From: the human T2T-CHM13v2.0 reference genome, Homo sapiens
Assembly: GCF_009914755.1 (NCBI RefSeq)
Contig: NC_060935.1
Direction: 5' to 3' (one strand)
DNA: 64,000 bases
Shown here: piece after piece, positions 46,574-50,537 of the stretch
How positions within the stretch are numbered: the stretch's first letter is position 1
Layout: each line of letters begins with the position of its first letter
Translations under genes and position numbers: made by a program
The notes under the pieces: generated by a model
Databases searched by the model: none
What the model saw: the letters and a program-made list of their open reading frames with translations, nothing else
What the model was told of the DNA's origin: nothing

Positions 46574-46632
46574 GAATAATAATAGCTACAATACTTTATT
46601 AAGGTATATACAATATAAAAAGATGCAAATTG

Positions 46633-46925
46633 GCCCGGGTCTTCCAGGAGTCGGGTTGCTTGGGAATGCAGCCCAAAGCGGGTGGTAAACTCCATTTAAG
46701 GCTAAATACCGGCACGAGACCGATAGTCAACAAGTACCGTAAGGGAAAGTTGAAAAGAACTTTGAAGAGAGAGTACAAGAGGGCGTGAAACCGTTAAGAG
46801 GTAAATGGGTCAGGTCCGCGCAGTCCGCCCGGAGGATTCAACCCGGTGGCGGATCTTTCCCGCCCCCCGTTCCTCCCGACCCCTCCACCCGCCCTCCCTC
46901 TCCCACCGCCCCTCCTCCTCCTCCC
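46633..46925 (+). rRNA. RNA28S: 28S rRNA fragment (D1-D2/start of ES7L region), non-functional retrocopy
   Basis: Conserved LSU motifs gagtcgggttgcttgggaatgcagcccaaagcgggtggtaaactccat, gagaccgatagtcaacaagtaccgtaagggaaagttgaaaagaactttgaagagagagt and gcgtgaaaccgttaagagg. Confidence 0.97.
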
Positions 46926-48048
46926 TAGGCATTACCATTCAGGACATAGGCATGGGCAAAGACTTCATGTCTAAAACACCAAAAGCAATGGCAACAAAAG
47001 CCAAAATTGACAAATGGGATCTAATTAAACTAAAGAGCTTCTGCACAGCAAAAGAAACTACCATCAGAGTGAACAGGCAACCTACAAAATGGGAGAAAAT
47101 ATTCGCAACCTACTCATCTGACAAAGGGCTAATATCCAGAATCTACAATGAACTCAAACAAATTTACAAGAAAAAAACAAACAACCCCATCAAAAAGTGG
47201 GCGAAGGACATCAACAGACACTTCTCAAAAGAAGACATTTATGCAGCCAAAAAACACATGAAAAAATGCTCACCATCACTGGCCATCAGAGAAATGCAAA
47301 TCAAAACCACAATGAGATACCACCTCACGCCAGTTAGAATGGCTATCATTAAAAAGTCAGGAAACAACAGGTGCTGGAGAGGATGTGGAGAAATAGGAAC
47401 ACTTTTACACTGTTGGTGGGACTGTAAACTAGTTCAACCATTGTGGAAGTCAGTGTGGCGATTCCTCAGGGATCTAGAACTAGAAATACCATTTGACCCA
47501 GCCATCCCATTACTGGGTATATACCCAAAGGATTATAAATCATGCTGCTGTAAAGACACATGCACACATATGTTTATTGTGGCACTATTCACAATAGCAA
47601 AGACTTGGAACCAACCCAAATGTCTGACAATCATAGACTGGATTAAGAAAATGTGGCACACATACACCATGGAATACTATGCAGCCATAAAAAATGATGA
47701 GTTCATGTCCTTTGTAGGGACATGGATGAAGCTGGAAACCATCATTCTCAGCAAACTATCGCAAGGACAAAAAACCAAACACTGCATGTTCTCACTCATA
47801 GGTGGGAATTGAACAATGAGAACACATGGACACAGGAAGGGGAACGTCACACTCTGGGGACTGTTGTGGGGTGGGGAGACGGGGGAGGGATAGCATTGGG
47901 AGATATACCTAATGCTAGATGACGAGTTAGTGGGTGCAGCGCACCAGCATGGCACATGTATACATATGTAACTAACCTGCACATTGTGCACATGTACCCT
48001 AAAACTTAAAGTATAATAACAATAAATAAATAAACAAATAGAAAAAAG
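46924..48048 (+). mobile_element. 5'-truncated L1PA2/3-like, fused to the 28S fragment
   Basis: ORF2 C-terminus intact to its natural stop; 3'UTR with gctagatgacgagttagtggg; poly-A. A shared TSD aaagatgcaaattg at 46619-46632 and 48049-48062 encloses rRNA plus L1. Confidence 0.96.
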
Positions 48049-50537
48049 AAAGATGCAAATTGTGACATCAAAAATTTAAAATGTGGAAGGATGGGTCAGG
48101 ATCACTCATTAGAAGCAGCTAGTACACACCTCCTCCATGAAAAGGAACCAGAATAGTAAATAAACACTTTGAATAGATCATCTAAGAGAGACTTAGATTC
48201 AACAAAGAAGTGATGAGAAGTACTGAATGTGAGTAAGGAGAGGGAAGGGGGCAGCTCTCTTGGCTGGGGATCAGCTGGGAGCCAGAAAAAGCTCCTGGAT
48301 GCAGGGAAAGGGTAAAAGAGAAACCCCCAGGGTTCTACACTCTCACCGCAGGCTTTTGCATTCTTGGCTATGAGAGAACCTCTTGGCCCACAGACCTTTG
48401 GCCTGACATGAGGAACAGACTAGAGACTGTACCAAGATGTCGCTCCAGACGGGGAACCCACATGGAGTCCCACAGGTATCTGAGCCCTGAGCAGCTGCTT
48501 CTTGGTGCCATCCTGAGAACTTTGCTGCTTAGAATCTGCATCCTGTCCTGAGGCAGGACTGACACAGCCAGTGCAGCTGCCACCACTAGGCTGGGACGGG
48601 AAAGGGGAGACTGGGCACTCCCACAGACAACTAGGATAGTCCACATCATCATGCTAGAGGCTACTGTGAAACCAAAGAATGAGTAGACTTCACTCCTCAT
48701 GTCTACTTGCCCACAGTGCGCCATCTGAGAGGGGCCCAGCCTTCCCTGGTGGTAGGCCCACAGCTGACATTTTGACAGTTTAGTCACTGGAGGTCTGCAC
48801 CCTACCCTTGAGCTGGGCTAGGGTTGTTGCTGCTGCAGCAGCTGCCAGTCCAAAAAGGGAAAGAGGAGACCAGGCACTCCCATGACCCCTAGAAAAGTTC
48901 CCACTGCCCTGTGTGGGCTGCTGTGAGACCAGAGCAAGAGCAGTATGCATTCCCCAAAGCTTCTTGCCCACAATGCTCTAACTGAGAGGGGCCTCATCCT
49001 TCCTGGTGGTAGGCCCACAGCACAGCCACCAAAGCCCACAGGGAACATTCCACCAGTACACTGGAAATCACCCTGCCTCTGCCTATTTCAGCCAGTGCCT
49101 AAACACACTACCAGGGAGCCTGTGAACAAGTCTACTTGCCTAATCCTATCCCCCAAGTACTTGAGCATGCCATCCAGAAGCCTGGAAATTTTTTAGCCCA
49201 GTCTACCACCATTGGCACCTGATTAGTCCTGCCAAGATTTGAGGTCAGGCTGACCCAACCTACTGATACCACCACAGCTGACACCCACACACACATGGTA
49301 CCAGCAGGCCAGGGGACTGGAATGCCCACCCATAGCAGTCACCACCAACACCAGTATGGATCACTTGGATTCCAGTAGGTTGCTTTACCACTGCTACTGC
49401 CATCACCCTTATCACACCTGCTGCCCAGGGCCTGAGTGCCTGCCCACAAGCCTGGCCCCCCCTGCTACTACCAGCATCCAAGCAAGCCACCTGGGGATCC
49501 AAGAATTGGCGCTCCAGGACCACTAACAGGTGCGAGAGTAATCTGCTCTGGGGCCTTAAAAGAGACACCACCACTGCCACCACCAAGACCTAAACAATGG
49601 TCCAACTAGTGTCCTAGTCCCATGCATAACTTCACCAACATCTCCACTAATAATCATACCCTAAACCACCGAGAAGTTCAAGATACCACTGACCCTGTGT
49701 GCTGATTAAAAAAAAAAAAACAGAGATCACACTACTTGCTGCAGGCCCCAAAATCAAAGCCAAAAACTTCCTATTCAGCCAACAATGTATATACAAGATA
49801 TATATATATCTTGTATGTCTTCAGGAAAAATCCTCCCCCATGAAAGCAACTTCAGAAAAATTGGAAGAAGTGACTATTACACCAGATATGTAGACATGAA
49901 TGTAAGAGCACAGAAAACAGCAAAAAGCAAGGAAATATGATACCATCAAAGGAACACAACAATTCCCTGAAATAAATCACAATCAAAAATAAATTCACAA
50001 AATCCCAGATCAAGAATTCAAAATACTGATTTTAAAGATGCTCAGTGAGATACAAGAAAACTCTACAAAATAATACCAAAAAATTAAAAAAAAAAAAAAA
50101 CCTCAGGATATGATGAAAATTTTACCAAAAAGATAGGTATTTCTAAAAAGAACCAAATAGAACTTATGGAACTGAAAAATTAATTGGAGAAAATACAAAA
50201 TAAACTCAAAAGTTTTAAAAATAGACTAGAGCAAGCAGAAGAAACAATTTCATAACTTGAAGACAGGTATTTTGAAATAATCCAGTCAGACAAAAATTTT
50301 TAAAAAAATAAGAAAGAAAAAAGCCTTTAAGATGTTTGGCAGTACATAAAATGACAAAATTTACAAATTATTGGTAGTTCCAAGGGTGAAGAGAGATCAA
50401 AAGACTTAGAAAAAATAATAGATGAAAATTTCCCAAGTCTAGCAAGACATTTAGACATACAGATACAGGAGGCTCAGTGATCCCCAGGAAAACAATGCAA
50501 AGAAGATTTTGCCATGGCACATTATAATCAGACTGTC

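What the first reader, a model, noticed from the sequence alone, without database searches (positions are those of the whole stretch)
46619..48062. 28S rRNA-L1 chimeric retro-insertion (single event, one TSD)
Seen: about 290 bp of the 28S rRNA 5' region is joined, same strand, to about 1.1 kb of an L1PA2/3 3' end with only about 2 nt of microhomology (CC). One 14-bp TSD (aaagatgcaaattg) flanks the whole unit. Established: U6-L1 and other small-RNA-L1 chimeras arise by template switching or by RtcB ligation of a 2',3'-cyclic-phosphate RNA end to L1 RNA; they usually carry the natural 3' end of a small RNA. Here the partner is an internal fragment of a Pol I transcript ending inside the GC-rich D2/ES7L segment. 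Inference: this may be a fossil of a cleaved 28S rRNA (D2 cleavage occurs in stress and apoptosis) joined to L1 RNA in a ribosome-associated L1 RNP, pointing to a route that captures broken rRNA into the germ line.
Basis: partly seen in the sequence, partly recalled or inferred. Interest (0 to 1): 0.8.

Follow-up and report, generated by a model that had tools for sequence, protein, structure and literature searches.

The report
Known 28S rRNA-L1 chimeric retro-insertion
A 293-bp piece of 28S ribosomal RNA was copied into a DLG2 intron together with the tail of an L1 element in a single retrotransposition event, and this exact locus is already catalogued in a 2026 paper, so it is real but not new.

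Summary

- **rRNA part:** window 46633-46925 is 28S rRNA, nt 263-582 of this genome's own rDNA. That is 254-576 in RepeatMasker numbering.
- **L1 part:** it is joined in sense to 1.1 kb of an L1PA3 3' end (46924-48030) plus an A-rich tail.
- **Junction:** the two parts overlap by 2 nt (CC).
- **Target-site duplication (TSD):** one 14-bp exact TSD flanks the whole unit. It is 16 bp with one mismatch. The site is AT/AAAA, an L1 endonuclease type.
- **No other copy:** no other place among those scored in this genome carries the junction.

It is not new. Law & Burns (Cell Genomics 2026; bioRxiv 2025), Table S3, list this very locus among 18 28S rRNA/LINE-1 chimeras, with the same TSD. They also discuss ligation versus template switching.

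My small additions:
- The 28S 5' end (G263) is identical in an independent, older chr2 chimera. There an antisense 5S rRNA lies inside the same TSD.
- rRNA/L1 junction overlaps are 2, 0, 0, 0, 0 nt in the five sense chimeras I examined.
- The rRNA end next to L1 is a C in 5 of 5 (4 distinct sites).

Interest is low.

The parts
46617..46632 (+). Upstream target-site duplication: AAAAAGATGCAAATTG. The last 14 bp (46619-46632) are an exact repeat. The last G could also be 28S G262.
   Evidence: Law & Burns Table S3 gives the same 16-mer at hg38 chr11:85483952-85483967.
46633..46925 (+). 28S rRNA fragment, sense. It is nt 263-582 of this genome's rDNA (RepeatMasker LSU-rRNA_Hsa 254-576). It has 8 substitutions, a 26-nt deletion between GGCGG repeats and a 1-nt deletion.
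   Evidence: Rfam hit; own-genome rDNA matches; alignments; structural context.
46924..46925 (+). CC shared by the 28S end and the L1 start (2-nt junction overlap).
   Evidence: 9 of 9 L1 copies have CC before TAGGCA. rDNA reads CCCC there. L1-only matches start at window 46921-46925, most at 46924 (query positions 66-70).
46926..48030 (+). 5'-truncated L1 3' end, labelled L1PA3 by RepeatMasker in Law & Burns. The ORF2 C-terminal frame is open to the stop codon at 47810-47812, followed by the 3' UTR.
   Evidence: Table S3 row: L1PA3 chr11:85484259-85485365.
48031..48048 (+). Degenerate A-rich tail (taaacaaatagaaaaaag).
   Evidence: Read directly.
48049..48062 (+). Downstream target-site duplication, 14 bp exact. 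The 16-bp form (48047-48062) reads AGAAAGATGCAAATTG, one mismatch.

Best explanation
One L1 ORF2p target-primed reverse transcription event nicked the DLG2 intron at AT/AAAAAG. It copied about 1.1 kb of an L1PA3 RNA from its poly(A) end. At L1 ...CC/TAGG it carried on, in the same direction, along a 28S rRNA molecule from about nt 582 (in D2/ES7) down to G263, where it stopped at the foot of the GC-rich D1/ES5 helix. The cDNA end was then joined to the target with at most 1 nt of overlap, giving one 14-16-bp duplication around the whole unit.

Shown: the anatomy, the single TSD, the endonuclease-type site and the uniqueness of the junction.

Inferred: that the switch from L1 RNA to rRNA was a template jump of the reverse transcriptase onto an RNA end during cDNA synthesis. 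My odds are about 0.95 that it was a single L1-made event. Within that, I put about 0.5 on a template jump and 0.4 on ligation of the two RNAs beforehand.
For: Single event:
- One exact 14-bp TSD lies at both outer borders, and only 3 direct-repeat families occur in the 2.1 kb.
- The site is AT/AAAA, there is an A-rich tail, and there is no A-run between rRNA and L1.
- A junction-spanning 140-nt query matches full-length only itself; 39 of 40 scored matches cover only the L1 half.
- Law & Burns Table S3 lists the locus as found both by proximity and by alignment-based co-arrival, with TSD size 16 and EN motif Yes.

Age fits an L1PA3-era event: non-CpG divergence from rDNA is 5/246 = 2.0%, and 20 of the 23 CpGs not in the deletion are kept.

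For a jump:
- The same 28S 5' end (G263) occurs in an independent L1PB1 chimera on chr2. There the sequence continues, after about 8 nt, into an antisense 5S rRNA inside the same TSD. So the enzyme left the 28S template at that point and further copying followed.
- G263 lies in the 3' strand of the helix that closes D1/ES5, which is a plausible stall or end point.
- Internal deletions lie in GC-rich rRNA stretches here (26 nt between GGCGG repeats) and at the chr11:77.8 Mb chimera. These are compatible with slippage while copying.
- Junction overlaps are 2, 0, 0, 0 (plus one extra T) and 0 nt in the five sense chimeras I examined. That is what end-to-end jumps give.
Against: - Nothing here separates a jump from ligation. 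Blunt or near-blunt junctions, sense orientation and recurrent fragment ends are expected under both.
- Two chimeras (chr8 and chr11:77.8 Mb) share the rRNA 3' end exactly and the 5' end within about 2 nt, but differ in L1 breakpoint and TSD. The rRNA end next to L1 is a C in 5 of 5 cases (4 distinct sites; local C content 0.33-0.48). Both points fit pre-cut fragments with pyrimidine 2',3'-cyclic-phosphate ends. Such ends are biased to C over U in mouse cP-RNA-seq, and they would suit ligation at least as well as a jump.
- The internal deletions could have arisen after insertion.
- The segment around the 26-nt deletion does not fold better than shuffled sequence (z 0.25).
- No ape or monkey orthologue could be examined with these tools.
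Confidence: 0.5

Rival explanations
1. Single event, but the two RNAs were joined before reverse transcription. A nuclease-cut 28S fragment ending in a 2',3'-cyclic phosphate near C580-582 was ligated by RtcB to the 5'-OH of a broken L1 RNA, and the chimeric RNA was then retrotransposed.
For: - The route is established for U6/L1, as cited by Law & Burns (Moldovan 2019; reference list and passages only).
- The rRNA end next to L1 is a C in 5 of 5 sense chimeras examined (4 distinct sites), matching the C>U bias of cP-RNA 3' ends in mouse tissues.
- The chr8 and chr11:77.8 Mb chimeras share the rRNA 3' end exactly and the 5' end within about 2 nt, with different L1 breakpoints. That argues for discrete fragments.
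- D2 and D8 are reported as the domains cut in dying cells (passages of PMC5523017 citing Houge 1993/1995).
Against: - The product of local C contents for 4 sites is only about 0.02, and n is small.
- The 5' end G263 is preceded by G, not by a pyrimidine. That end does not look like the same kind of cut.
- A germ-line insertion needs the event in a surviving germ or early embryonic cell, which sits badly with apoptotic cleavage.
- The other 263-start chimera ends at a different 3' position, about 522.
- I could not obtain a nucleotide map of D2 cuts.
Confidence: 0.4
2. Two separate events: a 28S retropseudogene or rDNA orphon was already there and an L1 landed beside it, or the reverse.
For: Solitary 28S pseudogenes exist in the genome. 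One example is the chr10 copy covering 28S 5-413.
Against: - There is no TSD or A-tail for the rRNA part alone, and no rRNA sequence beyond the L1.
- The only TSD spans both parts.
- Table S3 scores co-arrival of the two parts.
Confidence: 0.03
3. A daughter copy of an already chimeric, transcribed source locus, or a 5' transduction, rather than a junction made at this insertion.
For: None found.
Against: - The junction-spanning query matches full-length only this locus; 39 of 40 scored matches cover only the L1 half.
- A 5' transduction would carry the L1 5' UTR, whereas the L1 here starts about 1.1 kb from its 3' end.
Confidence: 0.02

Closest known systems
[quoted passage not shown]
   Same: This is one of the 18. 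The row reads hg38 chr11:85483968-85484263, LSU-rRNA_Hsa:254-576, L1PA3 chr11:85484259-85485365, TSD AAAAAGATGCAAATTG, cleavage AT/AAAA. Subtracting 85,437,335 from the hg38 positions gives exactly my window borders.
   Different: Nothing essential. The downstream 16-mer has one mismatch in this assembly. Most listed loci (7 of 18) start near LSU 3636; this one belongs to a minor group starting at 254 (2 of 18).
U6/L1 chimeras (Buzdin 2002; Garcia-Perez 2007; Moldovan 2019), known to me here only as cited in Law & Burns and from recall
   Same: A non-L1 RNA in sense at the 5' end of a truncated L1, one TSD, an endonuclease-type site, and the same two candidate mechanisms.
   Different: U6 is full-length and uses its natural 3' end, which carries a cyclic phosphate. 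Here the partner is an internal 320-nt stretch of a 5-kb Pol I transcript, and neither of its ends is a natural RNA end.
5S rRNA/L1 chimeras (Buzdin 2003, not held; Law & Burns Table S2)
   Same: An rRNA of the large subunit captured with L1 within one TSD.
   Different: 5S parts are mostly antisense and are read as twin priming. The 28S part here is in sense. The chr2 relative combines both kinds.
Solitary 28S retropseudogenes and orphons (Wang 1997; Munro 1986), seen in the reference list only
   Same: 28S-derived DNA outside the rDNA arrays.
   Different: Those were described as stand-alone copies. Law & Burns state that the first reported one is in fact an L1 chimera.

Membership tests
RNA-repeat/LINE-1 chimeric retro-insertion | Non-L1 RNA-derived segment directly abutting the 5' end of an L1, with no poly(A) between them | tested here: met
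   28S ends at 46925, L1 starts at 46924, 2-nt overlap.
RNA-repeat/LINE-1 chimeric retro-insertion | One target-site duplication flanking the whole unit | tested here: met
   14 bp exact at 46619-46632 and 48049-48062.
RNA-repeat/LINE-1 chimeric retro-insertion | L1 endonuclease-type target site and a 3' A-rich tail | tested here: met
   Top strand AT/AAAAAG; tail at 48031-48048. Table S3: EN motif Yes.
RNA-repeat/LINE-1 chimeric retro-insertion | Both parts arrive together in phylogeny (empty site in outgroups) | not testable with these tools
   No primate genomes are on hand. Table S3 gives found_by_msa_prediction = 1 for this locus.
28S (LSU) rRNA-derived sequence | Significant match to the LSU rRNA model and to the genome's own rDNA | tested here: met
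   81.7 bits against a gathering score of 50; 28S nt 263-582 of the rDNA unit.
L1PA3 subfamily | Subfamily-diagnostic positions of the 3' end | not tested
   No subfamily reference is on hand. The label is taken from the RepeatMasker column of Table S3. Here I have only 97-98% identity to the best genomic copies.
RtcB-ligated chimera of the U6/L1 kind | Partner RNA 3' end carries a 2',3'-cyclic phosphate, and the chimeric RNA exists before reverse transcription | not testable with these tools
   The only indirect hint is that the last rRNA base is C in 5 of 5 sense chimeras examined.
Apoptotic D2 cleavage product of 28S | 3' end coincides with a mapped D2 cut | tested here: inconclusive
   The end lies in the D2/ES7 insert, but the fine map (Houge 1995) is not held.

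The most novel reading that the evidence does not exclude
28S/L1 chimeras, this one included, capture pre-cut rRNA pieces with defined ends rather than random stretches.

- 28S G263 is a discrete end used twice independently: with L1PA3 here and with L1PB1 on chr2. On chr2 the copy then continues into an antisense 5S rRNA within one TSD.
- The rRNA ends next to L1 fall on C, as expected for RNase A-type cuts. Such cuts leave 2',3'-cyclic phosphates and feed RtcB ligation.

If so, these fossils map ribosome breakage in the germ line.
Probability: 0.25. Interest if true: 0.45.

Novelty: already known. Interest (0 to 1): 0.15.

Why it matters
The locus is a clean textbook example of L1 carrying another cellular RNA into the genome, and it confirms a published catalogue entry in an independent assembly.

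It adds little on its own. The class (18 loci), the sense bias and the ligation-versus-switch question are in print.

The shared end points I saw are cheap leads for anyone testing how L1 picks up rRNA:
- G263 used twice
- the chr8 and chr11:77.8 Mb chimeras share their rRNA 3' end and nearly share the 5' end
- C at the L1-side end

Tried and rejected
- **Pfam on the ORF2 tail:** 0 families for the 295-aa translation. L1 identity therefore rests on DNA matches.
- **RNA fold around the 26-nt deletion:** no better than shuffles, z 0.25. There is no case for a special hairpin.
- **Listing non-rDNA copies of this 28S stretch:** the 219 rDNA units fill the listings. Patterns with a non-rDNA base in front helped only partly; 2 reverse matches and 1 forward match stayed hidden behind rDNA rows.
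- **Guessed coordinates for the chr8:48.4 Mb chimera:** no rRNA match.
- **A 200-kb fetch to find the chr2 locus:** The locus was then found by pattern.
- **The chr10 hit:** it is a 28S 5-413 pseudogene, not a second 263 start.
- **The rRNA/L1 junction of the chr2 L1PB1 chimera:** too diverged to place to the nucleotide, so it is left out of the junction counts. The antisense chr1 chimera (L064) is also left out.
- **Papers not held:** Houge 1995 and Buzdin 2003.
- **Print search for the class:**. Apart from Law & Burns, no listed title or abstract concerned 28S/L1 chimeras.
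Full report
**1. What is there**

The window carries aaagatgcaaattg at 46619-46632 and again at 48049-48062. A repeat scan of 46300-48400 found 3 direct-repeat families of 11 nt or more: the two Alu halves, a 15-mer inside L1, and this pair. The pair sits exactly at the two outer borders of the unit. 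Upstream the repeat extends to the 16-mer AAAAAGATGCAAATTG (46617-46632). The downstream 16-mer (48047-48062) reads AGAAAGATGCAAATTG in this assembly, one mismatch.

*The rRNA part.* Window 46633-46925 is 28S rRNA.
- Rfam LSU_rRNA_eukarya scores 81.7 bits against a gathering score of 50, E 7.8e-19.
- In the own-genome search, 39 of the 40 scored matches (230 candidates) are rDNA units, each 293 nt against 320 nt at 89% including gaps.
- I took 28S nt 1 as the C of CGCGACCTCAG... in an rDNA unit. That start is recalled; Rfam places model position 1 two bases later.
- On that numbering the fragment is nt 263-582, or 262 if the last G of the TSD is counted.
- It differs from rDNA by 8 substitutions (2 of them CpG transitions), a 26-nt deletion bounded by GGCGG repeats, and a 1-nt deletion.
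- Non-CpG divergence is 5/246 = 2.0%. Of 30 CpGs, 20 are kept, 3 are lost by substitution and 7 lie in the deletion.

*The L1 part.* Window 46924-48030 is an L1 3' end.
- 39 of 39 other scored matches (1140 candidates) are 97-98% identical over 400 nt.
- Two long copies are 95% identical over 1.1 kb.
- The ORF2 frame is open from the junction to the stop codon at 47810-47812.
- A degenerate A-rich tail follows, up to 48048.

*The junction.* Nine of 9 genomic L1 copies read AAAACC-TAGGCA. The window reads CTCCC-TAGGCA, and rDNA reads CTCCCC-GGAGG. The overlap is therefore CC, 2 nt.

**2. Single event**

- The only TSD spans both parts.
- No A-run lies between the parts.
- The target site reads AT/AAAAAG on the top strand, an L1 endonuclease-type site.
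- A 140-nt query across the junction matches full-length only this locus. The other 39 of 40 scored matches (882 candidates) cover only the L1 half, starting at query positions 66-70, most at 69 (window 46924).

There is thus no parent or daughter copy in this genome. A 5' transduction is excluded, because the L1 starts 1.1 kb from its 3' end.

**3. It is in print**

[quoted passage not shown] What I read of it:
- outline and abstract
- passages
- the TSD methods section
- parts 1 and 2 of 3 of supplementary file mmc3.xlsx, which is Table S3
- two searches of the supplements

The paper reports 28S rRNA/LINE-1 chimeras as a new type:
- n = 18
- median rRNA length 269 nt
- 83% in sense
- a frequent start near nt 3,636

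It proposes RNA ligation or template switching as the mechanism.

Table S3 has this row: L1PA3 chr11:85484259-85485365; LSU-rRNA_Hsa:254-576 at chr11:85483968-85484263; TSD AAAAAGATGCAAATTG at both sides, 16 bp; cleavage site AT/AAAA; EN motif Yes; found by proximity and by alignment prediction.

Subtracting 85,437,335 from the hg38 positions gives 46633, 46924, 46617-46632 and 48047-48062. These are exactly my borders.

A second search listed no other paper whose title or abstract concerns such chimeras. I did not read the whole main text.

**4. Where the rRNA ends lie**

- The 5' end (G263) lies in the 3' strand of the long helix that closes the GC-rich D1/ES5 region of the Rfam LSU structure.
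- The 3' end (about nt 582, in CCUCCUCCUCCUCCCC/GGAGG) lies in the stretch that the Rfam model treats as a human insert in its variable region, i.e. D2/ES7.

D2 and D8 are reported as the domains cut in dying cells; I saw this only in passages of PMC5523017 citing Houge 1993/1995. The fine map itself is not held, so I cannot say whether nt 580-583 is a mapped cut.

**5. Comparison with other catalogued chimeras**

I found four more Table S3 loci in this genome by their TSD strings, and one by its expected position:

| Locus | 28S nt (this genome's numbering) | Orientation |
|---|---|---|
| chr2:78.7 Mb | 3904-4161 | sense |
| chr7 | about 3673-4081 | sense |
| chr8:69.7 Mb | about 3675-4050 | sense |
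| chr11:77.8 Mb | 3673-4050 | sense |
| chr1 | 4180-4545 | antisense |

- **Junction overlaps.** In the five sense cases including the window, the rRNA/L1 overlaps are 2, 0, 0, 0 (with one extra T) and 0 nt. Blunt joins, however, fit both ligation and end-to-end jumps.
- **Shared ends.** The chr8 and chr11:77.8 Mb chimeras share the rRNA 3' end exactly and the 5' end within about 2 nt, yet differ in L1 breakpoint and TSD. This argues for discrete rRNA pieces.
- **Last base.** The last rRNA base is C in 5 of 5 cases. These are 4 distinct sites, with local C content 0.33-0.48, giving a product of about 0.02. In mouse cP-RNA-seq the 3' ends of cyclic-phosphate RNAs are biased to C over U (passages of PMC6853296). 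This is suggestive only.

**6. The other 254-start chimera**

A pattern with a non-rDNA base in front of the 28S start found the chr2 L1PB1 chimera of Table S3 in this genome.
- Its 28S part also begins exactly at G263 and runs to about 522.
- Upstream, after about 8 nt, lies an antisense 5S rRNA (Rfam 47 bits against a gathering score of 38).
- A 14-bp TSD with one mismatch (AGAAAATATG[G/C]CAG) encloses the 5S, the 28S, the L1PB1 and its A-rich tail.
- The 5S part is not in the Table S3 row, and the coordinates do not occur in Table S2.

Two independent events, far apart in time, thus left the 28S template at the same base. In one of them copying went on from another RNA. That fits an RNA end or a hard stop at the foot of the D1/ES5 helix, followed by a jump. 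G263 is preceded by G, so this end does not look like a pyrimidine-specific cut.

**7. Verdict**

- A single L1-mediated chimeric insertion: about 0.95.
- How the two RNAs were joined is open. I lean slightly to a template jump (0.5) over prior ligation (0.4), on the chr2 triple chimera and the GC-rich internal deletions. None of this is decisive.
- Age: the L1PA3 label and 2% non-CpG divergence fit an ape-era insertion. The ages of L1 subfamilies are recalled, not tested. No primate orthologue could be examined here.
- Novelty: already known. Interest: low.

Noticed in passing
L072 (G000:C2:115360700-115362900, read as reverse complement): TSD at rc 127-140 and rc 2006-2019; 5S at L072 1969-2073 (+); 28S at L072 1696-1959 (-): The other catalogued chimera that starts at LSU 254 (hg38 chr2:114.94 Mb, L1PB1) is a triple chimera. 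Inside one 14-bp TSD (1 mismatch) lie an antisense 5S rRNA, about 8 nt of filler, 28S nt 263-522 in sense, and then the L1. The 5S part is not in the Table S3 row or in Table S2.
   Followed up: partly
L063 (chr8:69.7 Mb chimera) and L066 4659-5016 (chr11:77.8 Mb chimera): Two L1PA3 chimeras share the 28S 3' end (about 4050) exactly, and their 5' ends (about 3673-3675) lie within about 2 nt. They have different L1 breakpoints and different TSDs. The chr11 copy also lacks a GC-rich 19-nt stretch of the rRNA.
   Followed up: partly
window 46590-46884: The hub annotation lists a RefSeq 'silencer' that covers the upstream TSD and most of the rRNA fragment. A CpG-rich rRNA-derived stretch with 219 near-identical rDNA relatives could attract multi-mapping reads in functional screens. 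I did not test this.
   Followed up: no
window 46327-46575: An Alu (two partial Metazoa_SRP matches and a mir-1268-like match) with its A-tail ends about 45 bp upstream of the TSD. It is a separate insertion.
   Followed up: no
L073 (G000:C10:32437300-32439800), minus strand: A diverged solitary 28S 5'-end pseudogene (28S nt 5-413; Rfam 154 bits). It shares the changes GCCCAGATCTTCCTGG with the chr2 chimera at the same spot. I did not resolve whether this is chance or common descent.
   Followed up: no
window 48047-48062: The downstream 16-mer reads AGAAAGATGCAAATTG here, whereas Table S3 gives AAAAAGATGCAAATTG for both sides. That is either a difference between assemblies or the paper's alignment-based consensus.
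   Followed up: no
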